From Nitrospirota bacterium (GTDB lineage: Bacteria > Nitrospirota > UBA9217), in NCBI GenBank assembly GCA_029858565.1, contig JAOUEV010000021.1, positions 1 through 50,489 on the forward strand: a DNA stretch of 50,489 nt, read 5' to 3'. Both the position numbers and the translations under genes were made by a program. Under the pieces are notes generated by a model that was given only the letters and a program-made list of their open reading frames with translations, was not told the DNA's origin and ran no database searches. Shown here one piece after another: positions 5,007 to 50,489 of the stretch. The stretch's first letter is position 1; each line of letters starts with the position of its first letter.

Positions 5007-5023
5007 GAACTCCTCCTCAATAT

Positions 5024-5875: not shown

Positions 5876-6629
5876 GGCTCAATACCTCTTTTGCAAGATC
5901 AAGATAGCTCTGGGCGCCGCGCGACCGGATATCGTACAGCAGCACCGGCTTGCCGTGGCTCGGCGCTTCGCTCAAGGTGACGTTCCGGTTGATCACGGTC
6001 TTGTACACCTTGCTGCCGAAATACTTTCGCACTTCTTCCGCCACCTGTTCGGCAAGATTGTTCCTGCCGTCGAACATGGTGAGCAGCACACCCTCGACCT
6101 GGAGCCCGGGATTCAGGTCCTGTTTGATCAGCTTCACCGTGTTCATGAGCGCGGACAATCCTTCGAGCGCGTAGAACTCACACTGCACCGGTATCAGCAC
6201 GCCGTCAGCCGCGGTCAAGGCATTCACGGTCAGGAGCCCGAGCGACGGCGGACAGTCAATGAAGATATAGTCATACTGGTCGCGGAAGGACTCGATGGCT
6301 TTTTTCAAAACCCGCTCGCGGGCGATCATCTGGATCAGTTCGACCTCAACTCCGACCAGATCGATCTTTGCCGGGACCACGTCGAGCCAGGTGAAATGGG
6401 TGGTGTGCTTGATCTCCCCAAGGGACCGTTTGCCCGTAAAAAGGTCGTAGGTGCTGCCCGTTGCCTGGATCTTGTCGATCCCCATGCCGCTTGACGAGTT
6501 TCCCTGGGGATCGGCGTCGATCAGCAGCACCTTCTTCTCAGCAGCCGCGAGCGAGGCAGCTATGTTCACGGCAGTGGTCGTTTTCCCGACCCCGCCCTTC
6601 TGGTTTGCTATGGCAATGACCTTGCCCAT
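5853..6629 (-). CDS. parA: Chromosome partitioning ATPase ParA/Soj
   Basis: [42 protein letters not shown]. Confidence 0.96.
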
Positions 6630-6709
6630 CTATCCTCCGATGTCGTTGAAAGCCGGACTACTTTACCATAGGAAAGGTGCAAAGAAAAGAAGAAAGTCGG
6701 CGGTTGAAT

Positions 6710-6725
6710 TGTTCCACGTGGAACA
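6710..6725. promoter_or_regulatory. parS centromere-like site
   Basis: Perfect palindrome TGTTCCACGTGGAACA matching parS consensus TGTTNCACGTGNAACA, upstream of parA. Confidence 0.9.
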
Positions 6726-7796
6726 TCACCATTGCCCGATCTCCGCTCCCGCGGGATTTACCCGGAGAGAGCCGAAGGAGAGATTGCGGACCGCTGCCGG
6801 GTCCTTGAGCGGCGTGACCACGCGCAGTATCTGTTCCTTAAGATCCATGTCCCGTATGATCCCCATGTCGAGACAGTAATTGCGATCATCGTTCAGCCCG
6901 ATCAGCAGGTAGTCGAGTTCCGATTTTTTCAGCACCGTGACCTCGCGAACACCGTACTGCTCCTTTGCTGTGTACAGCTCATCCATTGCGTATTCACCTT
7001 CAGTGACCACAAAGAGCCGGTCCGCGGAAAGTTCCGCATGTACCACGATGCTCTGCAGGATCTTGGACAGCCGGTTCACATCGCGGAACCCCAGCCTCTC
7101 GCCCGTCCCCAGGCCGGGTCCATGGATGCCCACATCGGAAAGCGCGATATCCAGATAATCAGCGCCGCGGAAATACTCCTTGAACCTCTGTTCGCGAATT
7201 GCTTTTCGCGCCTCTGTTGTCGATATCTTTGCGTCCTGAGAGACCGGCAGCCTCTGAATAAGAACGCCTGCGCGCTGGGACAGCGGTGCGACCAGATGTT
7301 CTACCTCGCTCTTTTGCTGGATCGCCACAACATACCGGGGAGCGATCATATCGATCTCGTGATACTTCAGCTCCCTGCCTGCACCGCCGCTCACGAGTCC
7401 GCAGGTGTTGATGATCACAAGGTCCGGCCCCAGGGTCATGGCCCTGTTATAAAGTTTCTGGATCGAGGAGATCGCCTCAAGCAAATGACCGACCGGGCTG
7501 GTGTTGCCAATAAAACCCATGACCAGCGGCTTCTTTCTCTTTAAAAGCTCCGCTGCATCGGTGTAAAGGCCCAGAGAATAGGCTGCCGGCGGGCCAAGGA
7601 ACGGTTGACCGGGATCTGCGTCGATCCAGGCTACCCGACGGGCCCTGCGACAGAAGTATCCGGCAAGATAGACGCAAAAGGTGGTCTTGCCGGATCCGGG
7701 CGCGCCGATGACCATGACCGGCCCGCCGCCGGCCGCGATCTCCTCTGCAGCCTCCCGCCATTCAGCAGGTATATGAAAAGTTGATTCCGGCATCAT
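6726..7796 (-). CDS. Clp1/Grc3-family polynucleotide 5'-hydroxyl kinase
   Basis: Walker A GAPGSGKT, WIDADPGQ (DxGQ), INTCG, lid RKAIREQRFKEYF. Confidence 0.82.
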   Translation of the reverse strand: MMPESTFHIPAEWREAAEEIAAGGGPVMVIGAPGSGKTTFCVYLAGYFCRRARRVAWIDADPGQPFLGPPAAYSLGLYTDAAELLKRKKPLVMGFIGNTSPVGHLLEAISSIQKLYNRAMTLGPDLVIINTCGLVSGGAGRELKYHEIDMIAPRYVVAIQQKSEVEHLVAPLSQRAGVLIQRLPVSQDAKISTTEARKAIREQRFKEYFRGADYLDIALSDVGIHGPGLGTGERLGFRDVNRLSKILQSIVVHAELSADRLFVVTEGEYAMDELYTAKEQYGVREVTVLKKSELDYLLIGLNDDRNYCLDMGIIRDMDLKEQILRVVTPLKDPAAVRNLSFGSLRVNPAGAEIGQW

Positions 7797-7849
7797 AATA
7801 AGTCTATCTGTGGCACTGAGGACGCTTACGCTTAAGTCCGCAAAAGGAA

Positions 7850-7865
7850 TGTTCCACGTGGAACA
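7850..7865. promoter_or_regulatory. parS centromere-like site
   Basis: Second identical TGTTCCACGTGGAACA (extends to 20-bp palindrome AATGTTCCACGTGGAACATT), abutting the rsmG stop. Confidence 0.9.
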
Positions 7866-8510
7866 TTACGACTTCTTCCTGAAAACCCAGATGGTCCTGC
7901 GGTAATCGGAAAAAGGAAGCACCAGCTCGGTCCGAGACTCCCTGATCATTCCGAAGGAATCTACTATATCATCTGCAATCGTTTCCTCTGGTCCCCTGCT
8001 CAGCACCATCAGGCCGCCGGGCTTCAGGAATCTTCTGCCTTCATGCAAGGCCGAGGGCATATCGGAAAAAGCCCGGGCTGTCACAACATCATACTGTTCA
8101 ACATAGGACGCCGGCAGACCATCAGTTCTTTTGTCCGCGACCTCGGCGTTCTGCAGTCGCAACATGCGGACCATGTGCCTCAGAAAGGCCGCCTTTTTTT
8201 GCACTGACTCGACCATGGTAACTGCAAGACCGGGAATGGCGATCTTGAGCGGCAGGGCCGGGAATCCTGGTCCTGACCCCATGTCCAGCAGCCTTGTTCC
8301 TGCGCTGGGTTCAAATCCTTTCAAGTAGGAAAAGGAGTCTAAGAAATGCTTGATAACGATATCCTGCTCTCCCTTGATGGAGGTCAGGCTGATCTTGCGA
8401 TTCCATTTTTCCAGCTCGACCAGGTAGAAAAGGAACTGATCAACCTGTTCATCGGTCAGGTCAAGACCAAAGGTCTTAGCACCATCGGTCAGTTTGCGCC
8501 GGAGCGTCAT
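7866..8510 (-). CDS. rsmG: 16S rRNA m7G527 methyltransferase GidB
   Basis: KWNRKISLT, KHFLDS, LDMGSGPGFP, KKAAFL, VTARAF. Start moved to ATG 8510, just after the mnmG stop. Confidence 0.93.
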   Translation of the reverse strand: MTLRRKLTDGAKTFGLDLTDEQVDQFLFYLVELEKWNRKISLTSIKGEQDIVIKHFLDSFSYLKGFEPSAGTRLLDMGSGPGFPALPLKIAIPGLAVTMVESVQKKAAFLRHMVRMLRLQNAEVADKRTDGLPASYVEQYDVVTARAFSDMPSALHEGRRFLKPGGLMVLSRGPEETIADDIVDSFGMIRESRTELVLPFSDYRRTIWVFRKKS

Positions 8511-8511
8511 G

Positions 8512-10389
8512 TCAGGACCTCCCCCGCTTGCGCTTTTCCAATGCGACAAGAAGAAGCGAGATGGCCGCGGGCGTAACACCGGATATGCGCGATGCCTGTC
8601 CCAAGGATACCGGCCTGACGTGCTTGAGCTTCTGCTTTACTTCCGACCCCAGGCCGGTGATGCTGTCATAGTCCATGTCTTCCGGAAGGTCCTTCTGCTC
8701 CAGCGATGCGAACCGTTCCACCTGGCTCATCTGGCGCTGAATATATCCTTCATACTTGATCTGGATCTCCACCTGCTCAGCTGCATCGTCCTTCAGCGGG
8801 TGGTCAGTCGGGCTTATCACCGAGATATCGCCATAGGACAGCTCCGGTCTTTTCAGAAGCTGCTCCAATGCCGCGTCACTTGATAAGGCGTTCGAACCTC
8901 GCTGTTCCAGGACCGCGTTTACCTCTGCCGACGGTTTGACCCAGGTCTTCTTGATGCGCTTCAGCTCGCGCTCTACCGACTGGCGCTTCTCAACGAACTG
9001 CTGGTAATCGACTTCGGACACCAGACCGATCTCCCTGCCCCGGTCCCGCAGCCTTATATCCGCGTTATCCTCGCGCAGGATGAGGCGGTACTCTGCGCGG
9101 GAAGTGAACATGCGATAGGGTTCGTTCGTGCCCCTGGTGACGAGATCGTCGATCAACACACCAATGTAAGCGTCAGCGCGTGCGAGAATGAGCGGTTGCC
9201 GCTGCTGAACCTTGAGCGCGGCATTGATCCCCGCCATCAATCCTTGCGCAGCCGCCTCTTCATATCCTGAAGTGCCGTTGATCTGTCCGGCAAAGAACAA
9301 TCCTTCGATCTTTTTGGTCTCGAGCGTGTGCCTGATCTGCATGGGCGGCGCGTAGTCGTATTCGATCGCGTAGGCCGGACGCATGATCTCCACTTCCTCG
9401 AGACCGGTTATGGAACGGTACATTTCTGTCTGCACTTCAACCGGGAGACTTGTTGAAACGCCATTGGCATAATACTCTTCTGTATCCAATCCCTCGGGCT
9501 CCAGGAACACCTGATGACGCTCTCGCTCTGAGAAGCGCATGACCTTGTCTTCTATAGAGGGACAATATCTCGGCCCTATTCCCTTGATAACACCAGCGTA
9601 AAGTGGCGACTTGTCCAGATTATTTTTTATTATTTCATGTGTAAGTGGGTTGGTATACGTCAAATAGCAAGGAAGCTGCTGTAGCGGGTGGGTTTTTTCA
9701 CTAAAGGAAAAGAATGGTGCAGGATCATCTCCCGGCTGGATCTTCATTCTAGAAAAATCTATGGTTCTTCCGTTCAGCCTTGCTGGTGTGCCTGTCTTCA
9801 ATCTGCCGAGCTCAAAGCCCAGCTGACGAAGACTATCAGACAATCCCAGGGAAGGAAACTCGCCTGCACGCCCGGAAGGATAATGGGAAAGGCCGATATG
9901 GATGAGACCTTTCAGAAAGGTGCCTGTTGTGATGATCACGGTCGAAGAAAGATACTGAACGCCGATGTTCGTCTCAACCCCGCTGACACGCTGGCCCCCA
10001 ACCAGGAGCTTTTCGACCATACCCTGCTTCACATCGAGCCCGGTCTGTTTTTCCAGCGACTCTTTCATTGCCGCGCGATAGCGCTGCTTGTCCGCCTGGG
10101 CGCGAGTTCCCCGCACAGCAGGTCCTTTGCTCTTGTTCAGGGTCCGGAACTGGATTCCCGTGCGGTCGGTGATCTTCGCCATCTCGCCGCCGAGCGCGTC
10201 GATCTCCTTGACGAGGTGCCCTTTCGCAAGTCCGCCGATGGCCGGATTGCAGGACATCTGGCCGATCGTGTCCAGGTTCATGGTAAGCATGAGCGTGCTG
10301 CAGCCCATGCGCGCCGACGCCAGGGCGGCCTCGCACCCCGCATGTCCCGCGCCGATCACAATGACGTCGTATCTCTTTTGCGTATACAT
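8512..10389 (-). CDS. mnmG: tRNA uridine-5-carboxymethylaminomethyl modification enzyme GidA
   Basis: VIGAGHAGCEAA, MSCNPAIGG, GPRYCPSIEDK, AGQINGTSGYEEAA. Alternative GTG start at 10416. Confidence 0.97.
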   Translation of the reverse strand: MYTQKRYDVIVIGAGHAGCEAALASARMGCSTLMLTMNLDTIGQMSCNPAIGGLAKGHLVKEIDALGGEMAKITDRTGIQFRTLNKSKGPAVRGTRAQADKQRYRAAMKESLEKQTGLDVKQGMVEKLLVGGQRVSGVETNIGVQYLSSTVIITTGTFLKGLIHIGLSHYPSGRAGEFPSLGLSDSLRQLGFELGRLKTGTPARLNGRTIDFSRMKIQPGDDPAPFFSFSEKTHPLQQLPCYLTYTNPLTHEIIKNNLDKSPLYAGVIKGIGPRYCPSIEDKVMRFSERERHQVFLEPEGLDTEEYYANGVSTSLPVEVQTEMYRSITGLEEVEIMRPAYAIEYDYAPPMQIRHTLETKKIEGLFFAGQINGTSGYEEAAAQGLMAGINAALKVQQRQPLILARADAYIGVLIDDLVTRGTNEPYRMFTSRAEYRLILREDNADIRLRDRGREIGLVSEVDYQQFVEKRQSVERELKRIKKTWVKPSAEVNAVLEQRGSNALSSDAALEQLLKRPELSYGDISVISPTDHPLKDDAAEQVEIQIKYEGYIQRQMSQVERFASLEQKDLPEDMDYDSITGLGSEVKQKLKHVRPVSLGQASRISGVTPAAISLLLVALEKRKRGRS

Positions 10390-10412
10390 GTAAACCTTTT
10401 CAATTGTTCTCT

Positions 10413-11783
10413 TCACTTTCCTATGCAGAAATCCCGGAACACCCGCTCCAATATGTCCTCGGTATAGGTCGCGCCGATGATCGTGCCGATATGATCAAGT
10501 GCGTCTCGCAGGTCCAGTGCGATGAACTCCGGTGAGGCGTTGTTCCGCTCAGAGATCGCCGCCTTTTCCGCGCTGTTCAGCGCTTTTTCCAGCGCCTGCT
10601 TGTGGCGGGTGTTCACGGCCCAGGCGTGCTCGCCCGGAGCACCCTGTTCTCCCAGCGCCATGCGTGATATGGCTTTCCTGAGCTCATCAAGTCCCTGCCC
10701 GCTCTTGCAGGAAACATCTATCTGCACTTCCGGCCGCGCAAGTTTCTCGAGCTTCCTCGGAACATCCGCCTTGTTGATGACGACGACCGTGTTCTTTCGG
10801 CTTACTTCCTCAAGTATCTGACGGTCGCCGTCATGGAGCGGCTCGGAGCCGTCCAGCACGAGCAGTACCAGATCAGCGCTTGCAAGCGCGGCGACGCTTC
10901 TTTTCACGCCTTCCTGTTCCACCAGATCATGGGTGTCGCGGATCCCGGCGGTATCTATTATCCGTACCGCTATTCCGTTGATGGTGATGCTTTCCTCGAT
11001 GATGTCCCTTGTTGTTCCCGGCATGGAGGTCACGATAGCGCGATCCTCCCTAAGGAGGCTGTTCAACAACGACGATTTTCCCACATTCGGACGTCCCACG
11101 ATCGCTGTCGCGAGCCCCTCCCGCATGATCTTTCCAAATGCAAAACCGCTGATAAGCCCCTTGATGGTCAAGGCTACAGACTCGATCTCTTTTCCCAGCG
11201 GCCGTCCCTCCGGGGTCTCGATGTCCTCCTCGGGAAAATCCACACCTGCCTCTACTCCGGCCAGGAGACCGATAAGCTTCTGGCGGAGATCCTCGACCTC
11301 ACGGGAAAGACCTCCCTTGAGCTGCTCCTGCGCGGCCCGGTTGCTCGCGTCCGTCCGCGCCTTGATAACGTCCATAACAGCTTCCGCCTGCGCAAGATCT
11401 ATCCTGCCGTTCAGAAAAGCCCGCTTGGTGAACTCTCCCGGCTCCGCCTGCCGCGCACCTTCAGCGATCACCAGACCGAGCGTTCTTTCCAGGGCCACTG
11501 GCCCGCCATGGCCATTGACCTCCACCACATCCTCGCGCGTATAGGTGCCGGGTCCTCGCATGATCGTTACCAGCGCCTCGTCAACGATCGTCCGGTCTTC
11601 AGGATCGATGATCCGTCCGTAATGGATCGTATGGCTTGGGACCGTCAACAGGTCCTTTGGTCTCGATGGATGAAAAAGTTTTTTCGCGATCACGATCGAA
11701 TCGTTTCCGCTGATCCTTATGATCCCGATGCTCCCGTGGCCGGGAGCAGTTGAGACCGCACAGATCGTATCCTGGTCGCTCAT
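10413..11783 (-). CDS. mnmE: tRNA modification GTPase TrmE
   Basis: DTICAVST, GRPNVGKSS, GTTRD, DTAG, NKAD, C-terminal FCIGK. Confidence 0.97.
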   Translation of the reverse strand: MSDQDTICAVSTAPGHGSIGIIRISGNDSIVIAKKLFHPSRPKDLLTVPSHTIHYGRIIDPEDRTIVDEALVTIMRGPGTYTREDVVEVNGHGGPVALERTLGLVIAEGARQAEPGEFTKRAFLNGRIDLAQAEAVMDVIKARTDASNRAAQEQLKGGLSREVEDLRQKLIGLLAGVEAGVDFPEEDIETPEGRPLGKEIESVALTIKGLISGFAFGKIMREGLATAIVGRPNVGKSSLLNSLLREDRAIVTSMPGTTRDIIEESITINGIAVRIIDTAGIRDTHDLVEQEGVKRSVAALASADLVLLVLDGSEPLHDGDRQILEEVSRKNTVVVINKADVPRKLEKLARPEVQIDVSCKSGQGLDELRKAISRMALGEQGAPGEHAWAVNTRHKQALEKALNSAEKAAISERNNASPEFIALDLRDALDHIGTIIGATYTEDILERVFRDFCIGK

Positions 11784-42459: not shown

Positions 42460-43821
42460 CTAATCCGCAGCCAATCCGAATTTTTTCAGCTTTCTCCAGA
42501 GCGACACACGGTCAATTCCCAGGATCTGTGAGGCCAATGTCCTGTTCCCGGCGACCTCGTTCAGCACCCATCGTATGTAGGCGAGCTCCTGCTCCTCCAG
42601 CGAGGGGATTCGTCCCTCTTTCTTGCGGAATGTCTTGATGTTCAGTTCCTTCAGGTCATCGGGAAGATGACCGAGCTCCACGGTCTTGCTGTTCGAGAGC
42701 GCGACCCCGCGCTCCACGATATTCTCCAGCTCCCGGACGTTGCCGGGGAAGTCATAGTTCATGAGCAGGCTGATCACGTCCTCGTTGATCTCGGTGACCG
42801 GCCTCTTCATGAGCGTAGCGTACTTCCTGAGGAAATAATAGGAGAGCAGGGGGATATCATCCTTGCGCTCGGCCAGCGGCGGGATGCGGAGCGATACAAC
42901 GTTCAGCCGGAAGTACAGGTCCTGGCGGAAAGCGCCGCTCTTAACGGTCTCCTGGATGTCCCGGTTCGTCGCGGCGACGAATCGCACATTGACCTTTACG
43001 GCCTCGGTGCCGCCAAGGCGCAGGATCTCCCGCTCCTGGATGACCCGGAGAAGCTTCACCTGCATGGAGGTCGGCATCTCGGTTATCTCATCAAGGAACA
43101 GCGTGCCTTCCGACGCCATCTCGATCAGGCCCTTTTTCGCGACAGCAGCGCCGGTAAATGCGCCTTTCTCATGGCCGAACAGCTCATTGGTCAGCAATTC
43201 CTCGTTAAAGGCGCCGCAGTTGATGGCGAAAAAAGGCCCTGCGGCGCGGCGGCTGTGGAGGTGGATGAACCGGGCGAACAACTCTTTGCCTGTCCCGCTC
43301 TCTCCGGAGATCAGCACATTCGTGTCTACCGGCGCAACTTGTCGCGCCACATCGAGCAGCCTTTGCATCCCCGGGTCCTGCGTGATGATCTTTACCTTGC
43401 CCTGGTAGGACTCGAGCTGTTCGCGCAGGTTGCGGTTCTCCTTCTTCAGGGCTACTTTGTGAACTGCTTCGGCGACCACCTTGCGGACATCATCAAGCTT
43501 GAAGGGCTTGGCAATATAATAGAAAGCGCCGTGCTTCATCGCCTCGACCGCCGACTCCAGCGTGGCAAAGCCCGTGATCATGATGACTTCGGTGTCCGGA
43601 TGGGCATCGCGGCATCGCTTGAGGACCTGGAATCCATCCACCTTTTCCATTTTCAGGTCGGTCAATACCACGTCGAAGGACATTTCTTCAAGCAGATTGA
43701 TCGCGTTCTGACCGCTCTGGGTCGCCGTGACCTCGTATCCTTCTTTCTTCATGACGTGTTCGAGATTCTTGAGCGCCACTCGCTCATCGTCGACAATGAG
43801 TATCTTAGCGTGAGTATTCAT
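42460..43821 (-). CDS. Sigma54-dependent response regulator (NtrC family)
   Basis: REC domain (IVDDE, LTDLKM, KP), GESGTGKE, GAFTGA, FLDE, PGNVREL, Fis-type HTH. Confidence 0.95.
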   Translation of the reverse strand: MNTHAKILIVDDERVALKNLEHVMKKEGYEVTATQSGQNAINLLEEMSFDVVLTDLKMEKVDGFQVLKRCRDAHPDTEVIMITGFATLESAVEAMKHGAFYYIAKPFKLDDVRKVVAEAVHKVALKKENRNLREQLESYQGKVKIITQDPGMQRLLDVARQVAPVDTNVLISGESGTGKELFARFIHLHSRRAAGPFFAINCGAFNEELLTNELFGHEKGAFTGAAVAKKGLIEMASEGTLFLDEITEMPTSMQVKLLRVIQEREILRLGGTEAVKVNVRFVAATNRDIQETVKSGAFRQDLYFRLNVVSLRIPPLAERKDDIPLLSYYFLRKYATLMKRPVTEINEDVISLLMNYDFPGNVRELENIVERGVALSNSKTVELGHLPDDLKELNIKTFRKKEGRIPSLEEQELAYIRWVLNEVAGNRTLASQILGIDRVSLWRKLKKFGLAAD

Positions 43822-43833
43822 TTCAATCCCTTC

Positions 43834-45339
43834 TCACTTCATCGGAAGCCTGATGAGGAACACCGTGCCCTTGCCTGCTTCGCTGTCCACGGCGATGCAC
43901 CCGTCGTGCTCATCGATGATCTCATGGACAATGAACAAACCAAGGCCCGATCCCCGACCAACGTCCTTGGTCGTGAAGAAGGGATCAAAAACCTTGGTAA
44001 GGATGTCCTCAGGGATGCCGCTGCCGGTATCGCGCACTTCGATATCCACCGTGTCATCCTCGAGCGTGCACTTGCCGTGATATTTGAGATAGTTGTAGAT
44101 ACCGCCGTCGTCTCCTACCTTGTCAATAGCGCGGTGAAAGCGGGCCGCGATTGTGATGGTCCCTTCCCCGGGGATCGCCTCGGCCGCGTTCTTCAGCAGG
44201 TTCAGGAAGACCTGCTGGATCCGCTGTTTGTCCGCGAGTATCTCTACATCTTCGGCGATATTGACCTGGATGGAGGCTTTCGCGGGTATCTGTCCCTTGA
44301 TGAAGCGGATGGTCTCGTTGATCAGTCCGCGGAGCGGGATCCGCTGTTTCTTGAACTCCCTGTCCCGGGAGAATTCGAGCAGCGAGCGGACGATGTTCCG
44401 CGCACGGTCGGTCTGCTCGTTGATCTGGTCGACCAGCTCCCGTTTGAATGCCGGATCCGCGCTGTCAAGCTCTTCCGCCAGGATCTGGCCTGACGAGGAT
44501 ATGTTGGAAAGAGGGTTGTTCAGCTCATGGGCCACTCCCGAGAGAAGCGTTCCCAGGGAAGCGAGCTTCTCCGACTGTACCAGGTGGCGCTGGCGGAGCT
44601 CAAGCTCGCGCAGCATCTTGTTGAAAGCGCGGGTCAGGGAAAGCACCTCGCGGTCCCGGGAATCGATCGGGATGTTCTCGAAGGTGCCTTCAGCGATCAC
44701 TTCCATGTTCCGCTCCATCAGCTTCAGCGGTTTCACGACCATGCGTTCAAGCACCTGGCCGATCACGATGACCAGTGCGATCAGGACCAGCAGGGAGATG
44801 AGCAGGAATCGCTGCGAGGCGGCAAGCAGCGCCTGGATGCTCGACCGTTCGTTCCGGGAGATCTCTTCGGCCACGGTCACGATATCCTTGCCGGTCTTGC
44901 GGATCTTTCCCTCCAGCCGGACCTTGAGCGCCTGATCCTCCGGCGTAGGTTTGGTTCGCTGACGGCGGATGAGCTTCTCGTACCGGTCCATCAGCTCCTG
45001 ATACTGGCGGAGGTCCTTGCGGAGCAAAACGATGACCTCGGGCGAGGCGAGGGCCGCGAAGCCGGCGCGACTGACGTCGAGGATCTCACCGGCCCGGAGG
45101 GCATAGCGCAGGTTTTCCGCGTAGTCCGACCGCTGCTCAAAGAGGAAATAATTCTTCTCGAACCGCCGGATCTCCAGGGTGGTATCGAAGAACTCGGAGA
45201 TCGTCTCGCCGACCATGATCTTCTTTTCAAGATAGCGAAGCTCCAGGAACGTGAAGGCCGAGAGACCGATGATCATGAGCACCACGGCGTAGTAACCAAG
45301 GCGGATCTTCTGGCGGATGCTGTGCTGGTATTTGATCAT
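43834..45339 (-). CDS. Membrane sensor histidine kinase (2 TM, HAMP, HisKA, HATPase)
   Basis: SEKLASLG..GVAHELNNPL, NLLKNA, DTGSGI, FFTTK, GSGLGL; ATGA overlap with the Lon stop. Confidence 0.93.
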   Translation of the reverse strand: MIKYQHSIRQKIRLGYYAVVLMIIGLSAFTFLELRYLEKKIMVGETISEFFDTTLEIRRFEKNYFLFEQRSDYAENLRYALRAGEILDVSRAGFAALASPEVIVLLRKDLRQYQELMDRYEKLIRRQRTKPTPEDQALKVRLEGKIRKTGKDIVTVAEEISRNERSSIQALLAASQRFLLISLLVLIALVIVIGQVLERMVVKPLKLMERNMEVIAEGTFENIPIDSRDREVLSLTRAFNKMLRELELRQRHLVQSEKLASLGTLLSGVAHELNNPLSNISSSGQILAEELDSADPAFKRELVDQINEQTDRARNIVRSLLEFSRDREFKKQRIPLRGLINETIRFIKGQIPAKASIQVNIAEDVEILADKQRIQQVFLNLLKNAAEAIPGEGTITIAARFHRAIDKVGDDGGIYNYLKYHGKCTLEDDTVDIEVRDTGSGIPEDILTKVFDPFFTTKDVGRGSGLGLFIVHEIIDEHDGCIAVDSEAGKGTVFLIRLPMK

Positions 45340-47339
45340 TGCTGCACCAGGACCTGCGGAACGATCTCGGCGACCGTGTCGGCCAGGATGATCGTAATGT
45401 CCGACCGGACGGCGGCGGGAAGCTCGTCCACGTCGCTCCTGTTCTTGAGCGGCAGCACGATGGTGCGGACCCCGGCCCGTCGGGCGGCAAGCACTTTTTC
45501 CCGCACACCTGCAACCGGCAGCAGTCTGCCGGTGAGCGTGATCTCGCCGGAAAGGGCGACATCCCTGCGGGCCGGACGGCTGGTCAGGAGCGACAGGATC
45601 GCGACCGCGATCGTGATGCCCGCCGAGGGTCCGTCCTTCTGGATAGCGCCGGAGGGAACATGAATATGGATGTCCTGGTTCTCGAAGAAGTCCTCGGGGA
45701 TGGCAAAGGTCCGGGCGTTGCTCCTGATATAGGAAAGGGCTGCCTGGGCCGATTCGCGCATCACGTCGCCGAGCGATCCCGTGATGATCAGCTCCTTCTT
45801 CCCTTTCATGGCAACCGCTTCGACAAAGATGATATCGCCTCCGGCTTCGGTCCGGACAAGACCGGTCGCGACGCCGATCCGGTCCGTTTCCTCGACAACG
45901 TCAACGTGATATTTCTTCCTGCCCAGGAACCGCTCAAGCTCCGCCGGCGTGACGGTCACGGATTTTCGGCCGCCGGAGCCGAGCGACTCCTTTGCGAGCT
46001 TTCTGCAGACCATGGCGATCTGGCGCTCCAGGCCGCGTATGCCGGCCTCCCGGGTGTGTTCCCGGATGACGTGCTCCAGGGCTGCCTGGGTAAAGACGAC
46101 CTGGTCCGGTGACAGGCCTTTTTCACGGACCTGTTTCGGCACCAGGAACCGCGAAGCGATCTCGAGCTTATCCTCGAGCGCGTATCCGGAGAACTCGATG
46201 ACCTCCATGCGGTCGCGCAGCGGACCGGGCATGGCCTCAACGACATTCGCCGTGACAATGAACATCACGCCGGACAGGTCAAAGGGAACATCGAGGTAAT
46301 GGTCAGTGAAGGCCCGGTTCTGCTCCGGGTCCAGGACCTCCAGCAGGGCCGACGCCGGGTCTCCCTTGAAGTCCGAACCGATCTTGTCCAGCTCATCGAG
46401 CATCAGAACGGGATTCGCAGAACCCACCCGCCGGATCTCTTCAATGATCCTGCCGGGCCGCGCGCCGGTGTATGTCCGGCGATGGCCGCGGATGTCCGCT
46501 TCGTCCTTCACCCCGCCCAGGGAGATGCGGGCGAAGTTCCTTCCCAGGGCAAGCGCTATGGACCTGCCAAGAGAGGTCTTTCCCGTGCCCGGAGGCCCGG
46601 CAAAGCAGAGCACGGTGCCTCGCGAGCCCGTTGCGAGCGATCGTTTTTCAAGGGCTTGCCGGACGGTTTCGCGCACTTCATCGAGCTTATAGGGCTTGGT
46701 GATGTAATGGAAGGCTCCCCGCTTCATCGCATCGATCGCTGACTGGACCGTGGCGAATCCGGTAACAATGATCACCCGGGTCTCGGGAAAGCGCTTCTTC
46801 ACCGATTCAAGAAGGTCCATGCCGCTTACCGGGCCCATGCGCAGGTCCGTCAGGACAACGTCGAACTCACCGGTCTCGAGAGCCTGGAGCCCTGATTCCG
46901 CGTCAGCGGCGGTTACGACCTCATAGTGCTCCCTGGTCAGGATATGAGAAAGGTTCTTTCGAGCGATCTCCTCATCGTCAATGACAAGGATGCGCGCCTG
47001 CCTGTTCATCCGCAGCACCTTGACCGCGAGGTGCTCCAGCACGCGCTCCTTGATCAGCTCGAGACCGAAATGGTGTTCATTCAGCACGCGCTCTGCGCGA
47101 ACGATGTCAAGGTTGTCCTCGGTGCGGTGGTTCCAGGGAAGGGAGAGCAGGTAGTCGATGTAGGTGAGGCCGATGGAGAACTCGGCGGACGACGGTCCGA
47201 TCTTCGACAGGACCTCGAGCTCCTGTACGGCAACAGGAGCGACCACAGGGGGCAGATGGGCATTTTCGATCCTCTGGCGCAGCTCTGCGAGGACCTGATC
47301 CTGTTCCTTGTCGGTATTTTTTTTATTAAAGAATCCCAT
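45336..47339 (-). CDS. LonA-family ATP-dependent protease lacking the N-domain, with inserted receiver (REC) domain
   Basis: LSLPW, HFGLELIKERVLEHLAV, REC (ILVIDDEE, VVLTDLRM, VTG, ITKP), GPPGTGKT, LDELDK, KDGPSAG, REKVLAA. ATG 47339. Confidence 0.9.
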   Translation of the reverse strand: MGFFNKKNTDKEQDQVLAELRQRIENAHLPPVVAPVAVQELEVLSKIGPSSAEFSIGLTYIDYLLSLPWNHRTEDNLDIVRAERVLNEHHFGLELIKERVLEHLAVKVLRMNRQARILVIDDEEIARKNLSHILTREHYEVVTAADAESGLQALETGEFDVVLTDLRMGPVSGMDLLESVKKRFPETRVIIVTGFATVQSAIDAMKRGAFHYITKPYKLDEVRETVRQALEKRSLATGSRGTVLCFAGPPGTGKTSLGRSIALALGRNFARISLGGVKDEADIRGHRRTYTGARPGRIIEEIRRVGSANPVLMLDELDKIGSDFKGDPASALLEVLDPEQNRAFTDHYLDVPFDLSGVMFIVTANVVEAMPGPLRDRMEVIEFSGYALEDKLEIASRFLVPKQVREKGLSPDQVVFTQAALEHVIREHTREAGIRGLERQIAMVCRKLAKESLGSGGRKSVTVTPAELERFLGRKKYHVDVVEETDRIGVATGLVRTEAGGDIIFVEAVAMKGKKELIITGSLGDVMRESAQAALSYIRSNARTFAIPEDFFENQDIHIHVPSGAIQKDGPSAGITIAVAILSLLTSRPARRDVALSGEITLTGRLLPVAGVREKVLAARRAGVRTIVLPLKNRSDVDELPAAVRSDITIILADTVAEIVPQVLVQQ

Positions 47340-47562
47340 GTCCAATGATCCAGGAAAACCGGTTTTCGCGCGAAGCCGCAAAGCCGCTAAAAAAGATTAA
47401 AGGAACAAGCCGTAGCAGCGGAAAAACAAGGAACATGTTCTGAGTACTGTATCCATTCATCTTAGCGAAGGGTCTGCCCAAGACATTTGTCCTGTTTTTC
47501 TTTGCGGCTTTGGGCGAGACAGAAAATGAATTTAGATAGCACTTAACAACGACCCGGCATCA

Positions 47563-47663
47563 GTTGCATTTTACAACGCCTAGCTGGTAAGTGCAACAGC
47601 GATTATTTCTCAATTTAACAATATGTTACATGATTCATTATAAAGACCATTGCATTTGTAAAC
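47563..47663. promoter_or_regulatory. Putative enhancer (UAS) sites and IHF-like site
   Basis: GTTGCATTTTACAAC (47563), GCTGGTAAGTGCAAC (47583), ATTGCATTTGTAAAC (47649); TAACAATATGTTA (47616). Confidence 0.5.
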
Positions 47664-47740
47664 AACACTGTCCGATTACTGTACCGGATACTGAACCTAT
47701 TACTTCTTAATATACAACACGTTCCGCATAAAGGGAACTT

Positions 47741-47756
47741 TGGCACGATGGTTGTA
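47741..47756 (+). promoter_or_regulatory. Sigma54 (-24/-12) promoter
   Basis: TGGCACG-ATGG-TTGTA versus consensus TGGCACG-N4-TTGCW; GT instead of GC at -12. Confidence 0.7.
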
Positions 47757-47795
47757 ATAGTAATAATAGAAAAACAATGAAAGGAGGGTTGACCT

Positions 47796-47966
47796 ATGAA
47801 GACCCTGTTAAAGAAAATGGAGACGATGTTCGCAGCATCAGCATTTGCCGAGGCCGGAGAACATGAGACCGCGCGCCAGATCCTGAAGGACGCTGAGCAG
47901 CGGAAGAACGATCGTCCGTCGCTTCAGGCGCGTCCATCCACCAGGCCGTCGCTGCGGGCGAACTAG
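47796..47966 (+). CDS. Small protein (56 aa) with FAEAGE motif
   Basis: Below ORF-track cutoff. AGGAGG SD; MKTLLKKMETMFAASAFAEAGEHETARQILKDAEQRKNDRPSLQARPSTRPSLRAN. Confidence 0.75.
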   Translation: MKTLLKKMETMFAASAFAEAGEHETARQILKDAEQRKNDRPSLQARPSTRPSLRAN

Positions 47967-47987
47967 AGCGCTGGAGCAGGTCGAACC

Positions 47988-48485
47988 ATGGACAGCCAGA
48001 AGCTCAAGAAGATCATGAAGCAGATCGAGGATTCCCTCGCAGCGGTCTCCTTTGCCGAGGAAGGCCAGCAGGAGACGGCGGCTACCCTGTTCCGGAGGGA
48101 GCGGAGACTGCTCGTCGCGGTGCGGGAAGGACATGTCGATCCAAAGACCCTGAAGTACGGCCTGAATACCGCTGTCAGGATCGGATCGCAGGTCGACATC
48201 CTCTATGTCACCGCCGAGGGCGGCGGCCACACGCGGATCGACAAGGACCTCGAGGAGTTCGATCGCGAACTTTCGGCAGCTGCCATTCCTCATCGCCTGG
48301 TCAGGAAGAGCGGCTGTCTGAAGCAGCAGATCATCGACTACACGAACAAGGAGCATGAGGTGCTCTTCGTGGTTGTCGAATCCCCCCGCAGTCTGGATGC
48401 GGACTGCTCGGGCAAGGACACCGCGCTGACAGAGTTGTGGAAAAAGCTGCGGTGTCCGCTTGTGGTGGTGTCTGAAGCGCAGTAA
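47988..48485 (+). CDS. USP-like protein with N-terminal FAEEG motif
   Basis: SLAAVSFAEEGQQETA, then RLLVAV, VDILYV and CPLVVV as in the USP fold. Confidence 0.7.
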   Translation: MDSQKLKKIMKQIEDSLAAVSFAEEGQQETAATLFRRERRLLVAVREGHVDPKTLKYGLNTAVRIGSQVDILYVTAEGGGHTRIDKDLEEFDRELSAAAIPHRLVRKSGCLKQQIIDYTNKEHEVLFVVVESPRSLDADCSGKDTALTELWKKLRCPLVVVSEAQ

Positions 48486-48572: not shown

Positions 48573-48824
48573 ATGGCAGCAACAAGCAGCAAGAAAAAAC
48601 CGGTCACCGCGCTGGTGATCACCGGTATCGTGTCGATCGTGATGTACGGTCTGCTCCTGACCAAGCAGGAACTGATCAACAGCACCTTCGGCAAGGGCGG
48701 ATGGTTCGCATTCCTTCCGATCGTGACGGCATTCCTGTTCTCCTTCGTGCACGGAGCGTTCACCGGCCACTTCTGGACCGTGCTCGGCATCGAAGCGGCA
48801 AAAAAGAAGAAGGAGGTAAAGTAA
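48573..48824 (+). CDS. Small two-TM membrane protein
   Basis: AGGAGG SD, two hydrophobic helices, FSFVHGAFTGHFW. Confidence 0.75.
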   Translation: MAATSSKKKPVTALVITGIVSIVMYGLLLTKQELINSTFGKGGWFAFLPIVTAFLFSFVHGAFTGHFWTVLGIEAAKKKKEVK

Positions 48825-48825
48825 G

Positions 48826-49908
48826 ATGCACGATATTGCGACGAATTTCATCAATCTTGATCTCATCACCATGCTGTACCTCTTCGGTGTCGGTTTCGTT
48901 GGCGGCCTGGTCTCCGGTTTCATCGGTTCGGGCGGCGCTTTTGTGCTTACCCCGGGCATGATGAGCCTGGGCGTTCCCGGTCTCATGGCAGTTGCGAGCA
49001 ATATGTGCCACAAGTTCCCCAAGGCGCTGGTCGGCGCGGTGAAGCGCGCCAAGTACGGCCAGGTGGACGTGAAGCTCGGGATCATTCTCGGCATCTCGGC
49101 TGAAGCGGGTGTGCTCTACGGCGCGCATATCCAGGAGAGCATCAAGAAGGCCTTTGGCGATGCCGGTTCTAACCTTTATGTCAGCGCCGCGTTCGTGGTG
49201 ATCCTTGCCACTGTGGGCGGGTTCGTTCTGCGCGACGCATGGAAGACCCATAAGTCCGGAACCGCACATGAAGAGGAAAAGGCAGGCAAGCTGGCCAAAT
49301 GGGTGCAGTCCATCAACATTCCCGGCACTATGGTCTACTTCAAGAGCCTGAACGCCAAGGTCTCGGTGCTCTTTACCATCCCCCTCGGGTTCGCAACCGG
49401 CATGCTGGCCGCGACGATCGCCGTGGGCGGATTCGTGGGCGTTCCGTCCATGATCTATGTTCTCGGCGCGCCGAGCATCATGGCGTCGGCAACAGAGCTG
49501 GTGATCGCCTTTGTGATGGGCGTGGGCGGATCGTTCAAGTACGCGCTTTCGGGCCTGGTGGACATCAGGCTGGCCATGCTGATCCTCGCGGGCTCGCTCT
49601 TCGGCGTTCAGCTTGGCGCGATCGGCACGACCTACGTGAAACCCTTCATGATCAAGATGGTGATGGGGGTGATCATGGTGATCGTGCTCTTCAGCCGTGC
49701 GCTCATGATCCCGGTCTATATGTCCCAGCTCGGCTTGATGGACAAGATGGGCGACATGACCGTGAAGGTGCTGAAGAACACCAGTTTTGCTATAATGATC
49801 GCAGCACTGGCGATCGGAGCGTTCATCATCATTAAGGCCTTTGTGGAAGGCCGCAGGGAAGAGAAGCTCCGCCTGGCGTCAGAAGCGCTGGAACATGGGA
49901 AAATATAA
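48826..49908 (+). CDS. TauE/SafE (TSUP) family membrane transporter
   Basis: GFVGGLVSGFIGSGGAFVLTP repeated as AVGGFVGVPSM; GSLFGVQLG. Confidence 0.85.
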   Translation: MHDIATNFINLDLITMLYLFGVGFVGGLVSGFIGSGGAFVLTPGMMSLGVPGLMAVASNMCHKFPKALVGAVKRAKYGQVDVKLGIILGISAEAGVLYGAHIQESIKKAFGDAGSNLYVSAAFVVILATVGGFVLRDAWKTHKSGTAHEEEKAGKLAKWVQSINIPGTMVYFKSLNAKVSVLFTIPLGFATGMLAATIAVGGFVGVPSMIYVLGAPSIMASATELVIAFVMGVGGSFKYALSGLVDIRLAMLILAGSLFGVQLGAIGTTYVKPFMIKMVMGVIMVIVLFSRALMIPVYMSQLGLMDKMGDMTVKVLKNTSFAIMIAALAIGAFIIIKAFVEGRREEKLRLASEALEHGKI

Positions 49909-50489
49909 GAAAATCCTTATAGCTGTCGATGGTTCTGAATCAAGCCGGAACGCGCTCCTGCAGGCGTTCCGGCTTGCTGTTGAAGAAAAGTGCTGGATCA
50001 CGGTCACGTCGGTCGTCCCGCCGGTCACCGGCGACCTGGACCTTACCGGCGTGTCGGACGTTCGCGCTTCCCTTGCCAAACCCTGCGAAGATGCCCTGAC
50101 CGAAGCACGCAGTCTCGCCGAGCAGGAGTGCATCCTGATCAAGACAGTGCGCGAGGAAGGCGAGACCTATGAGCGGATCGTGGACCTGGCAGATGCCGAG
50201 AACGCGGACATCATCGTCATGGGACGCAGGGGACTGCGCAGAATGGCGCGCGTTCTGGTCGGCAGTGTGACCGCGCGGGTGATCGGCCACACGCAGCGTG
50301 ATGTTCTTGTGGTCCCCGCGGGCTCGATCCTGGGCTGGAAGAAGATCGTGGTTGCCACGGACGGATCCCGGTTCAGCGCGAAGGCGACGGACAAGGCCAT
50401 CAGCTTTGCCCAGGCCTACGGCGGATCGCTCGCGGTCCTGTCGGTGGTCGATGTGCCGCCGGAGCTGTATGCCGAGGCGCCGCAGGCGG
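49895..50489 (+). CDS. Tandem-domain universal stress protein, runs off window
   Basis: Not in ORF track. MGKYKKILIAVDGSESS...IIVMGRRG...LVGSVTARV...VLVVP, second domain KIVVATDGS. Confidence 0.88.
   Translation, partial: MGKYKKILIAVDGSESSRNALLQAFRLAVEEKCWITVTSVVPPVTGDLDLTGVSDVRASLAKPCEDALTEARSLAEQECILIKTVREEGETYERIVDLADAENADIIVMGRRGLRRMARVLVGSVTARVIGHTQRDVLVVPAGSILGWKKIVVATDGSRFSAKATDKAISFAQAYGGSLAVLSVVDVPPELYAEAPQA

What the first reader, a model, noticed from the sequence alone, without database searches (positions are those of the whole stretch)
45336..47339. Lon protease with a phospho-receiver domain inside its AAA+ module and no N-domain
Seen: the protein starts at the helical region just before the AAA+ domain, so the ~200-aa LonA substrate-binding N-domain is absent. 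A complete REC domain (~46645-46997; acidic DDEE, phosphoacceptor in LTDLRM, conserved T and K) sits between HLAVKVLR and the strand leading to Walker A. Walker A/B and the Ser-Lys dyad are intact. Established: in ordinary LonA this position is a short linker. Inference: a protease whose ATPase or oligomerisation is switched directly by two-component phosphorylation. I recall similar REC-Lon genes in Desulfovibrio genomes, but know of no mechanistic study; that recollection is unverified.
Basis: partly seen in the sequence, partly recalled or inferred. Interest (0 to 1): 0.88.

Follow-up and report, generated by a model that had tools for sequence, protein, structure and literature searches.

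The report
Receiver-domain Lon protease, known subfamily
This gene encodes a real Lon-type protease that has lost its usual substrate-binding head and carries a two-component receiver domain instead, a design already noted in Desulfovibrio in 2011 but still not studied biochemically.

Summary
Window 45336-47339 (-) encodes a 667-aa LonA-type protease. It has no N-domain, and a complete REC domain lies between the last helix of the N-terminal helical bundle and the first strand of the AAA+ domain. All REC, ATPase and protease catalytic residues are conserved in 45 of 45 relatives, except the first acidic residue, which is D in 44 and E in 1. Both junction lengths are invariant. It is not an assembly chimera: contigs from three other studies bridge the junctions, and 48 other public genomes carry the same gene.

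It is not new as a kind. It matches the "lon-protease response regulator" DVU3303 of the D. vulgaris three-component system DVU3303-3305. Rajeev 2011 already proposed phosphorylation-dependent proteolysis for it, and Trotter 2023 found cofitness above 0.9. The window has the same context: REC-Lon, kinase, sigma-54 activator, and a divergent Usp/TauE operon. My four literature searches found no biochemical study.

New here:
- the exact insertion point, with rigid linkers;
- a truncation equal to the MtaLonA construct AAAP;
- a single REC-Lon clade;
- REC kinship with the partner activator;
- an unnamed N-terminal "FAEAGE" motif on neighbouring small proteins.

Phospho-gating remains an inference.

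The parts
45336..47339 (-). REC-Lon coding sequence (667 aa plus stop), P0001
47004..47339 (-). Residues 1-112: the C-terminal part of the LonA N-terminal helical region (helices 4-27, 34-46, 52-66, 79-89, 94-112). The globular LonA N-domain is absent.
   Evidence: Residues 18-109 align to 3m6a 11-102 and to 7p6u 251-348. Helices are from the AF2 model. The N-terminus MxFFKK is conserved in the relatives. 0 of the 120 best homologues list PF02190.
46662..46991 (-). REC (receiver) domain, residues 117-226. Acidic pair D121/D122, phospho-acceptor D165 (codon 46845-46847), T193, Y212, K215.
   Evidence: Pfam PF00072, E 1.1e-27. Residues conserved in 45 of 45, except D121 (44 D, 1 E) and Y212 (35 Y, 10 F). 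The best solved REC relatives are NtrC1 chains 1zy2 and 1ny5.
46620..46685 (-). REC helix alpha5 plus linker (residues 219-240), predicted as one helix that ends 2 residues before AAA+ strand 1 (243-247)
   Evidence: AF2 secondary structure. The span from K215 to K254 is 40 residues in 45 of 45, while linker identity averages 24%.
45978..46610 (-). AAA+ module: AAA 244-384 (Walker A K254, codon 46578-46580; Walker B D315/E316; pore-loop Y290) and Lon_lid 406-454
45345..45953 (-). Lon_C S16 protease domain, residues 463-665. Catalytic S572 (codon 45624-45626) and K615 (codon 45495-45497).
   Evidence: Pfam E 2.5e-81. S and K conserved in 45 of 45. Same place found in the genome search.
43834..45339 (-). 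Histidine kinase (HAMP-HisKA-HATPase_c, 501 aa). Its ATG overlaps the lon stop codon.
42460..43821 (-). Sigma-54 enhancer-binding response regulator (REC, Sigma54_activat, HTH_8; 453 aa)
   Evidence: Its REC is the best non-self REC match in the genome to the Lon REC (130.6 bits, 49% identity).
47563..47598 (-). Conserved intergenic block TGTTGCA-N13-CGTTGTAAAATGCAAC (read on the minus strand). It is either a sigma-70-like promoter (-35 TTGCA, 17-nt spacer, -10 TAAAAT) for the lon operon, or activator binding sites, or both.
   Evidence: Alignment of 7 upstream regions. The reading as promoter or binding site is inference.
47340..47545 (.). Segment of about 200 nt between that block and the lon ATG. 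It is absent from 6 related loci and carries inverted-repeat arms.
   Evidence: The arms recur on more than 20 other contigs of the same genome.
47741..47756 (+). Sigma-54 type -24/-12 promoter-like site TGGCACGATGGTTGTA for the divergent operon
   Evidence: TGGCAC-N5-TTG(T/A) recurs in 9 of 16 upstream regions compared.
47796..47966 (+). 56-aa ORF with the N-terminal motif MKxLLKK..AFAEAGEHETAR
   Evidence: No Pfam or NCBIfam family.
47988..48485 (+). 165-aa protein with the same N-terminal motif followed by a divergent Usp-like fold
48573..48824 (+). 83-aa hydrophobic protein, conserved next to the TauE gene
48826..49908 (+). TauE/SafE-family anion exporter (360 aa)
   Evidence: Pfam E 3.4e-34
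49895..50488 (+). Tandem universal stress protein; it runs off the end of the window
   Evidence: Pfam Usp, E 4.1e-40, 2 stretches

Best explanation
The gene is an orthologue-type member of the REC-Lon subfamily of LonA proteases (type example: D. vulgaris DVU3303). It is an accessory Lon paralogue. The globular N-terminal substrate-recognition domain and long helix are gone, and a phosphorylatable receiver domain is wedged rigidly between the remaining helical bundle and the AAA+ ring.

It is the first gene of an operon with a membrane histidine kinase and a sigma-54 activator whose receiver is its closest paralogue.

Most likely mechanism (inferred, not shown):
1. The kinase phosphorylates both receivers.
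2. The activator turns on the divergent Usp/TauE stress-transport operon.
3. Phosphorylation of D165 moves the alpha4-beta5-alpha5 face of the Lon REC.
4. Because alpha5 continues as one helix into AAA+ strand 1, just before the Walker A loop, this changes ring packing or pore access and so gates ATP-dependent proteolysis.

Without the N-domain the enzyme should not act in general quality control. It should degrade a narrow set of regulatory or disordered clients. One signal would then couple transcription and proteolysis.
For: Shown here:
- Domain order and insertion point.
- A confident AF2 model: pLDDT 88.4, pTM 0.80, helix 94-112 leading into REC strand 116-120, and REC helix 219-240 leading into AAA+ strand 243-247. 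It superposes on LonA chains with target TM up to 0.92.
- D122, D165, T193, K215, K254, E316, Y290, S572 and K615 are conserved in 45 of 45 REC-Lon proteins from two phyla. D121 is D in 44 and E in 1. D315 is invariant in the 95-row alignment.
- Both junctions have one length in 45 of 45, although the linker sequence averages 24% identity.
- The kinase start overlaps the lon stop.
- 25 of 48 REC-Lon loci have kinase and activator homologues within 6 kb, and 16 of these have the window's order.
- The Lon REC's best non-self match among 49 REC matches in its own genome is the neighbouring activator.
- 45 Lon RECs and 25 partner-activator RECs group together, apart from 15 other RECs of the genome (SH-aLRT 90).
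- The genome also has a full-length LonA (815-aa frame on C82), so this is an extra Lon.

From papers:
- Rajeev 2011 describes the same three-component system, regulation of its own operon and of the Usp/membrane operon, induction by stress, and the suggestion that phosphorylation is needed for protease activity (passages).
- Trotter 2023 reports pairwise cofitness above 0.9 for DVU3303-3305 (passage).
- Tzeng 2021: MtaLonA lacking residues 1-241 keeps wild-type ATPase and peptidase activity and degrades alpha-casein, but not damaged folded proteins (passages). REC-Lon starts at the equivalent point.
Against: - No phosphotransfer, ATPase or proteolysis measurement exists for any member, as far as my searches reach.
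- The cofitness may partly reflect polarity, because the lon gene is first in the operon, or autoregulation.
- 10 of 48 REC-Lon loci show none of the window's neighbours in their flanks, and a Desulfobacterales clade has no kinase nearby, so the kinase link is not universal.
- Comparison of the alpha1 helix, the main kinase-contact surface by general knowledge, did not single out the partner activator: 5 of 13 identical, against 2-6 of 13 for other RECs.
- I found no conserved sigma-54 promoter for the lon operon itself.
- The direction of control, activation or inhibition by phosphorylation, cannot be told from sequence.
Confidence: 0.6

Rival explanations
1. Substrate docking rather than allostery. 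The REC replaces the lost N-domain as the recognition module. It pairs through its alpha4-beta5-alpha5 face with the paralogous REC of the activator, or with another receiver, in one phosphorylation state, and feeds that protein into the pore. Proteolytic feedback would then end the signal.
For: - The Lon REC and the partner activator REC are each other's closest relatives.
- The N-domain that normally selects substrates is missing.
- Lon is known to degrade a receiver-type protein, FixT (listing and abstract only).
- REC-type adaptors for ClpXP, such as RssB, exist (abstract of PMC10755785).
Against: - In D. vulgaris, mutants of the protease, kinase and activator behave alike (cofitness above 0.9). 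If Lon destroyed the activator, opposite signs would be expected. Polarity weakens this argument.
- The invariant, helix-continuous linker suggests mechanical coupling more than a free docking module.
Confidence: 0.15
2. Dedicated protease for the neighbouring proteins that share the N-terminal FAEAGE motif. The 56-aa peptide and the Usp-like 165-aa protein would carry a common N-terminal helix that serves as tag or adaptor for REC-Lon, and kinase input would decide when they are removed.
For: - 27 of 48 REC-Lon loci hold at least one ORF with the motif 8-25 residues after a Met (47 ORFs in all), against 0 of 32 loci with ordinary LonA.
- In the own 3.9-Mb genome only 3 convincing copies exist, and 2 of them lie beside REC-Lon.
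- The motif ORF is the immediate neighbour in 'orphan' loci that lack kinase, activator and TauE: L024, L027 and L044 divergent, L032 convergent.
Against: - The third copy in this genome sits in a paralogous Usp/TauE/kinase/activator cluster without any Lon. The motif may therefore belong to the transport/stress regulon, not to the protease.
- The control loci come mostly from other phyla, so the 27-versus-0 contrast is confounded by taxonomy.
- The motif was not found by this rule in the Desulfovibrio-type loci.
- No binding test was possible.
Confidence: 0.12
3. Phosphate sink. The REC mainly drains phosphoryl groups from the kinase and so tunes activator phosphorylation, while the protease part works constitutively.
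For: - Two paralogous receivers sit beside one kinase.
- Branched pathways with sink receivers are established in chemotaxis systems (recalled, not checked here).
Against: A sink would need neither a fixed-length helical connection nor strict conservation of the ATPase and protease sites in the same polypeptide across two phyla.
Confidence: 0.08
4. Assembly chimera or annotation artefact: the REC was joined to a truncated lon gene by mis-assembly.
For: None found.
Against: - A contig of run X1, which may be the source sample, spans the whole stretch with 0 differences.
- Contigs of three other studies bridge the junctions: X2 record 12 covers 46322-46704, X3 record 24 covers 46927-47263 and X5 record 32 covers 46896-47118.
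- 48 loci from other genomes, including the complete Desulfosarcina variabilis chromosome, have the same architecture.
- All 120 best database homologues carry PF00072 with PF00004.
Confidence: 0.01

Closest known systems
DVU3303 'lon-protease response regulator' of the D. vulgaris Hildenborough three-component system DVU3303-3305 (Rajeev et al. 2011, PMC3333781; Trotter et al. 2023, PMC10102598)
   Same: - A REC plus Lon protein encoded with a histidine kinase and a sigma-54 response regulator.
- A divergent operon of membrane and Usp-type proteins that includes an anion transporter.
- The 2011 paper reports orthologues in Thermodesulfovibrio, the same phylum as the best relatives of this window.
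   Different: - I did not hold the DVU3303 sequence, so orthology rests on architecture and context and on Desulfovibrio-group loci L038-L042 (50-52% identity).
- In those loci the kinase and activator are convergent downstream, not co-directional.
- The FAEAGE-motif ORFs were not found there by my rule.
Canonical LonA (endopeptidase La; B. subtilis 3m6a, M. taiwanensis 7fd4, E. coli 6u5z) and the engineered N-domain deletion AAAP of MtaLonA
   Same: - The helical bundle, AAA+ module, lid and S16 protease align over the full length at 50-56% identity outside the REC.
- Walker motifs, pore tyrosine and the Ser-Lys dyad are present.
- The natural N-terminus falls where AAAP was cut.
   Different: - About 240 N-terminal residues (globular domain and long helix) are absent.
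- A 125-aa REC is inserted before AAA+ strand 1.
- On a tree of the AAA+/protease part, REC-Lon forms its own branch: 61 rows against 34, SH-aLRT 98.
NtrC1/DctD-type sigma-54 activators (REC, helical linker, AAA+)
   Same: - A REC lies directly N-terminal to an AAA+ ring domain through a helical alpha5 linker.
- The REC's best solved relatives are NtrC1 chains 1zy2, 1ny5 and 4l4u (E about 1e-22).
- This is a precedent for phosphorylation controlling AAA+ ring assembly (established knowledge, recalled).
   Different: - The AAA+ domain is of the Lon clade and has no GAFTGA loop.
- The linker is much shorter.
- A helical bundle precedes the REC.
- The output is proteolysis, not transcription.
- Dimer-based control could not be assessed here.
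Receiver-domain protease adaptors RssB and CpdR for ClpXP
   Same: A two-component receiver decides what an AAA+ protease degrades (abstract of PMC10755785). NCBIfam gives weak REC-level matches to the RssB and CpdR models, far below their cut-offs.
   Different: Those receivers are separate proteins that act in trans on ClpXP. Here the receiver is part of the protease chain.

Membership tests
LonA / endopeptidase La (TIGR00763, MEROPS S16) | Whole-protein score over the curated cut-off | tested here: met
   717.3 bits against a cut-off of 608.05, in 2 stretches
LonA / endopeptidase La (TIGR00763, MEROPS S16) | N-terminal LON substrate-binding domain (PF02190) and long coiled-coil helix | tested here: not met
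   No PF02190 hit. The alignment to LonA starts at about residue 250 of a full-length chain. 0 of the 120 best homologues list PF02190.
LonA / endopeptidase La (TIGR00763, MEROPS S16) | AAA+ module with Walker A and B, pore-1 tyrosine and the Lon-type lid | tested here: met
   PF00004 and PF22667. K254, D315/E316 and Y290 are conserved.
LonA / endopeptidase La (TIGR00763, MEROPS S16) | S16 protease domain with the Ser-Lys dyad | tested here: met
   PF05362, E 2.5e-81. S572 and K615 lie 43 residues apart and are conserved in 45 of 45.
LonA / endopeptidase La (TIGR00763, MEROPS S16) | ATP-dependent proteolysis by a hexamer | not testable with these tools
   A hexamer of 6 x 667 residues exceeds the limits of the folding tools.
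Two-component receiver (REC, PF00072) | Fold plus the acidic pair, phospho-acceptor Asp, Thr/Ser and Lys | tested here: met
   E 1.1e-27 over 110 of 111 profile positions. D121, D122, D165, T193 and K215 are conserved. The AF2 model shows alternating strands and helices.
Two-component receiver (REC, PF00072) | Phosphorylation by a cognate kinase | not testable with these tools
   Only adjacency and REC kinship with the partner activator. The alpha1 comparison was inconclusive.
DVU3303-type three-component system | REC-Lon gene next to a histidine kinase and a sigma-54 REC activator | tested here: met
   25 of 48 related loci also have both.
DVU3303-type three-component system | Divergent target operon with Usp-type and membrane/anion-transport proteins behind a sigma-54 promoter | tested here: met
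   TauE and Usp domains. The 165-aa protein is Usp-like. A -24/-12-like site lies at 47741-47756 and is conserved in 9 of 16 upstream regions.
DVU3303-type three-component system | Sequence orthology to DVU3303 itself | not tested
   The D. vulgaris Hildenborough sequence was not among the records I held. Desulfovibrio-group loci L038-L042 are 50-52% identical.
NtrC1/DctD-like REC-controlled AAA+ assembly (works-like comparison only) | Off-state REC dimer that holds the AAA+ domains apart | tested here: inconclusive
   Only a helical alpha5-to-AAA+ connection is predicted. No usable result on dimerisation.

The most novel reading that the evidence does not exclude
REC-Lon is a kinase-gated AAA+ protease whose lost substrate-binding head has been replaced by a signalling domain. 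Its dedicated clients or adaptors are the neighbouring proteins that share the unnamed N-terminal helix motif (..KKxExxMxAAAFAE[AE]GE[FH]ETAR). One membrane sensor would then switch on a stress/anion-transport operon and, through the same phosphoryl signal, license removal of tagged regulators of that operon.
Probability: 0.15. Interest if true: 0.75.

Novelty: new member of a known kind. Interest (0 to 1): 0.4.

Why it matters
Regulated proteolysis by Lon is usually explained by degrons, adaptors or substrate-driven allostery. A Lon with a receiver domain built into the chain would be a direct wire from a two-component sensor to an AAA+ protease.

The family is common: 50 of 301 sampled genomes of this phylum, and many Desulfobacterota. 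In D. vulgaris it is genetically tied to chlorate and stress phenotypes. It is small enough for biochemistry and cryo-EM, yet my searches found no mechanistic work.

For this scan the value is mainly in correcting the novelty claim. It also supplies concrete, testable anatomy: the exact insertion point, the rigid linkers, the AAAP-like truncation and the candidate partner motif.

Tried and rejected
**REC self-association.** Complex prediction on residues 94-250 in two copies gave no verdict. It counts neither for nor against.

**Kinase-specificity residues.** I compared the alpha1 and beta5-alpha5 columns of Lon REC and partner REC in 25 genomes and against 15 other RECs of the own genome. Only a few columns matched within genomes more often than shuffles did. 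The alpha1 identity of 5 of 13 did not exceed that of unrelated RECs (2-6 of 13). Inconclusive.

**Sigma-54 promoter for the lon operon.** No site within 2 mismatches lies in the intergenic region on the minus strand. The scored scan found only GGGCAGACCCTTCGCT in the window. That site lies inside the window-specific inserted segment and is not conserved.

**Rfam on 47250-48050.** 0 matches at E up to 1.

**Long multi-stretch hits.** I suspected that the long hits in the 50%-cluster library were multi-REC Lon proteins. The 7 long multi-stretch hits scanned (889-1379 aa) have two or three Lon-type AAA+ modules and no REC. The 710-aa P0126 has one AAA+ module and two Lon_C stretches.

**RNA evidence.** No RNA holder is listed for the stretch.

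**Chimera hypothesis.** Rejected.

**Search for mechanistic papers.** None turned up in four searches:
- Lon protease, receiver domain, response regulator, Desulfovibrio;
- DVU3303-3305;
- Lon protease, receiver domain, fused, phosphorylation, AAA+;
- REC-Lon, Lon-like protease domain, output domain.

The library lacks most subscription journals.

**Supplements are closed.** I did not see Tables S5 and S9 of Rajeev 2011, which hold the target list and the DVU3305 binding motif. They bear on my reading of the conserved intergenic block.

**Model coordinates.** They are not available to scripts, so I could not measure REC-to-ring contacts.

Full report
**What is there**

The minus-strand ORF 45336-47339 translates to a 667-aa protein, P0001.
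- Pfam finds a receiver domain at 117-226 (E 1.1e-27), AAA at 244-384, the Lon lid at 406-454 and the Lon S16 protease domain at 463-665 (E 2.5e-81).
- The NCBIfam equivalog for endopeptidase La (TIGR00763) scores 717 bits, above its cut-off of 608, in two stretches separated by the receiver.
- Against solved structures, residues 18-109 align to residues 11-102 of the B. subtilis Lon chain 3m6a, and residues 235-665 continue at 102-531. In the 795-aa chain 7p6u the first stretch lies at 251-348.

Two facts follow. The first 240-250 residues or so of a normal LonA (the globular N-domain and long helix) are not encoded. A receiver of about 125 residues is inserted at a single point, between the last helix of the N-terminal helical bundle and the strand that leads to Walker A.

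No gene fragment for an N-domain lies upstream. The next 650 nt are intergenic and AT-rich.

The frame stays open to a TTG at 47381. The ATG at 47339 is nevertheless the conserved start, because the relatives all begin M-x-F-F-K-K.

**Is it intact and real?**

I aligned 45 full-length REC-Lon proteins: the window plus 44 loci. Four of the 48 loci were dropped because contig ends cut them below 600 aa.
- The receiver residues D122, D165, T193 and K215 are invariant. D121 is D in 44 and E in 1. The switch aromatic Y212 is Y in 35 and F in 10.
- Walker A K254, Walker B E316, pore-loop Y290, S572 and K615 are conserved in 45 of 45. D315 is invariant in the wider 95-row alignment.
- The segment from H103 to D121 is 19 residues in 45 of 45, and the segment from K215 to K254 is 40 residues in 45 of 45. 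The linker 233-243 is nevertheless only 24% identical on average.

An AlphaFold2 model built on 95 sequences is confident (mean pLDDT 88.4, pTM 0.80). Helix 94-112 runs into REC strand 116-120. REC helix alpha5 (219-240) continues to within two residues of AAA+ strand 243-247. The model superposes on LonA chains with target-normalised TM up to 0.92, for example 6on2_D at rmsd 2.7.

Independent assemblies settle the chimera question.
- A contig of run X1, possibly the source sample, spans the stretch without a difference.
- Contigs from three other studies bridge the two junctions: X2 record 12 covers 46322-46704, X3 record 24 covers 46927-47263 and X5 record 32 covers 46896-47118.

**How common is it?**
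- All 120 best hits of a search with residues 1-300 carry PF00072 together with PF00004. Of these, 117 also carry Lon_C; the other three are 424-475-aa fragments. None lists the LON N-domain. Full-length members are 638-692 aa.
- In the species-representative genome collection, 48 of the 80 loci kept are REC-Lon. They come from Nitrospirota/Thermodesulfovibrionia and many Desulfobacterota, including the complete chromosome of Desulfosarcina variabilis. The other 32 are Lon genes without a REC segment.
- In a sample of 301 genomes of the window's phylum, 57 matched the junction-spanning query. By my reading of the table, 50 have a full-span match without stops (G000 included), 2 have internal stops, 1 is cut by a contig end, and 4 matched only the REC of activator-sized frames. 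In the window's own family, 33 of 63 matched.
- On a tree of the AAA+/protease part alone (REC columns excluded), 61 REC-Lon rows sit on one side of a single branch against 34 ordinary LonA rows (SH-aLRT 98). The simplest reading is one origin followed by spread between phyla. The ordinary rows were a sample of top search hits.
- The window's genome also has a full-length LonA (815-aa frame on C82) and another Lon split over two contig ends, so REC-Lon is an extra paralogue.

**Context**
- The stop codon of REC-Lon overlaps the ATG of a HAMP-HisKA-HATPase kinase (43834-45339). Twelve bases after the kinase comes a REC-sigma54-HTH_8 activator (42460-43821).
- Divergently lie a 56-aa ORF, a 165-aa protein with no family hit but a Usp-like predicted fold, an 83-aa hydrophobic protein, a TauE/SafE exporter and a tandem Usp.
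- A -24/-12-like site, TGGCACGATGGTTGTA, precedes this operon. The same element recurs in 9 of 16 upstream regions compared.
- A strongly conserved block, TGTTGCA-N13-CGTTGTAAAATGCAAC, lies about 30 nt upstream of the lon ATG in relatives. It can be read as a sigma-70-like promoter (-35 TTGCA, 17-nt spacer, -10 TAAAAT), as activator sites, or as both. That reading is inference.
- Of the 48 REC-Lon loci, 25 have kinase and activator homologues within the flanks (16 in the window's order), 26 have the TauE gene, 32 have one or the other, and 10 have none of the window's neighbours.
- In Desulfosarcina the neighbours are a CitMHS/Na-sulfate-type transporter and TrkH/TrkA, which again points to ion transport.

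**Relation of the two receivers**
- Among 49 REC matches in the own genome, the best non-self match to the Lon REC is the neighbouring activator (130.6 bits, 49% identity). An activator on C73 follows closely (121.6 bits).
- In a tree of 86 RECs, the 45 Lon RECs and 25 partner-activator RECs form one group (SH-aLRT 90). It excludes 15 other RECs of this genome and one non-orthologous neighbour. Inside the group the order is unresolved.
- This fits a shared origin and a shared kinase but does not prove either. The alpha1 comparison was inconclusive.

**What is already in print**
- Rajeev et al. [quoted passage not shown] They report binding of DVU3305 to its own operon and to DVU3302-3298 (membrane and Usp-type proteins), induction under high pH, heat and stationary phase, and orthologues in Thermodesulfovibrio yellowstonii and some proteobacteria. 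[quoted passage not shown]
- Kazakov et al. 2015 (PMC4641369; one table passage) list the same regulon.
- Trotter et al. 2023 (PMC10102598; one passage) show that the three genes are detrimental in chlorate and have pairwise cofitness above 0.9, and that the target DVU3299, a putative anion transporter, is important under chlorate.
- Tzeng et al. 2021 (PMC8087443; passages) show that MtaLonA without residues 1-241 keeps wild-type ATPase and peptidase activity and degrades alpha-casein, but not heat-damaged Ig2 or scrambled lysozyme. REC-Lon begins at the equivalent position.
- Four searches found no biochemical or structural work on a REC-Lon.

**Most likely mechanism**

Shown: a catalytically complete LonA core, a complete receiver, rigid fixed-length connections on both sides, an adjacent kinase, and a sister receiver on the partner activator.

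Inferred:
1. The kinase phosphorylates both receivers.
2. The activator induces the Usp/TauE operon.
3. Phosphorylation of D165 is transmitted through alpha5 into the AAA+ large subdomain. It changes ring assembly or pore access and so gates proteolysis.
4. The lack of the N-domain restricts the enzyme to specific or disordered clients.

I put this at about 0.6 overall. Identity and family placement are close to certain; the gating step is about even odds. The sign of control is open. In D. vulgaris the like phenotypes of the three mutants are compatible with activation, but polarity and autoregulation could produce them as well.

**Rivals**
- The REC as a docking site for the activator's REC, giving proteolytic feedback.
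- A protease dedicated to the motif-bearing neighbours.
- A phosphate sink.
- An assembly artefact, which is refuted.

**A lead found on the way**

The 56-aa ORF and the 165-aa Usp-like protein share an N-terminal motif (M-K-x-L-x-K-K-x-E-x-x-M-x-A-A-A-F-A-E-[AE]-G-E-[FH]-E-T-A-R) that has no Pfam or NCBIfam family.
- A simple rule finds it in 27 of 48 REC-Lon loci (47 ORFs) and in 0 of 32 loci with ordinary Lon.
- In the 3.9-Mb genome the rule hits six places. Three are convincing, and two of those lie beside REC-Lon.
- The third heads a paralogous cluster (Usp, activator, GntR, TauE, kinase, REC activator) that has no Lon.
- The motif ORF is also the immediate neighbour of REC-Lon in loci that lack kinase, activator and TauE: L024, L027, L032 and L044.
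- Whether it marks substrates, adaptors or simply the regulon is open. The control loci come mostly from other phyla, so the contrast is confounded by taxonomy.

**Verdict**

The object is a new member of a known, published but biochemically unexplored kind. Interest is moderate (0.4).

Noticed in passing
window 47796-47966 (+) and 47988-48485 (+); own genome C86:15006 (-); loci L001-L046: An unnamed N-terminal motif (..KKxExxMxAAAFAE[AE]GE[FH]ETAR) is shared by a 56-aa ORF and a Usp-like 165-aa protein. It occurs in 27 of 48 REC-Lon loci and in 0 of 32 ordinary-Lon loci. A third copy in the genome heads a paralogous Usp/TauE/kinase/activator cluster without Lon.
   Followed up: partly
window 47340-47545: A segment of about 200 nt in the lon leader is absent from 6 related loci. 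Its inverted-repeat arms (47366-47394 and 47497-47517) recur on more than 20 other contigs of the same genome. It looks like a small dispersed repeat or MITE-like element inserted between the promoter region and the start codon.
   Followed up: partly
window 47563-47598 (-): The block TGTTGCA-N13-CGTTGTAAAATGCAAC is almost invariant in 7 aligned upstream regions. It is a candidate sigma-70-like promoter of the lon operon, a binding site of the sigma-54 activator, or both. The published DVU3305 motif is in a supplement I could not open.
   Followed up: partly
proteins P0121, P0123, P0124, P0125, P0127, P0129, P0136 (50%-cluster library): These Lon-like proteins of 889-1379 aa have two or three Lon-type AAA+ modules (AAA plus Lon_lid repeated) before one Lon_C domain. 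P0126 (710 aa) has two Lon_C stretches.
   Followed up: no
own genome C73:8640-9002 (+): The REC of a second activator (456-aa frame) is almost as close to the Lon REC as the neighbour's (121.6 against 130.6 bits). It falls outside the Lon/partner group in the tree. Its context was not examined.
   Followed up: no
L034 (Desulfosarcina variabilis chromosome) 2156-10572: Here REC-Lon has no kinase or activator nearby. It sits between a CitMHS/Na-sulfate-type transporter with TrkA_C domains and a TrkH/TrkA potassium uptake pair.
   Followed up: no
own genome C43:2891-3313 and C23:1-327: A third Lon gene appears to be split across two contig ends. A weak Lon_C match also lies in an 835-aa frame on C62.
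   Followed up: no
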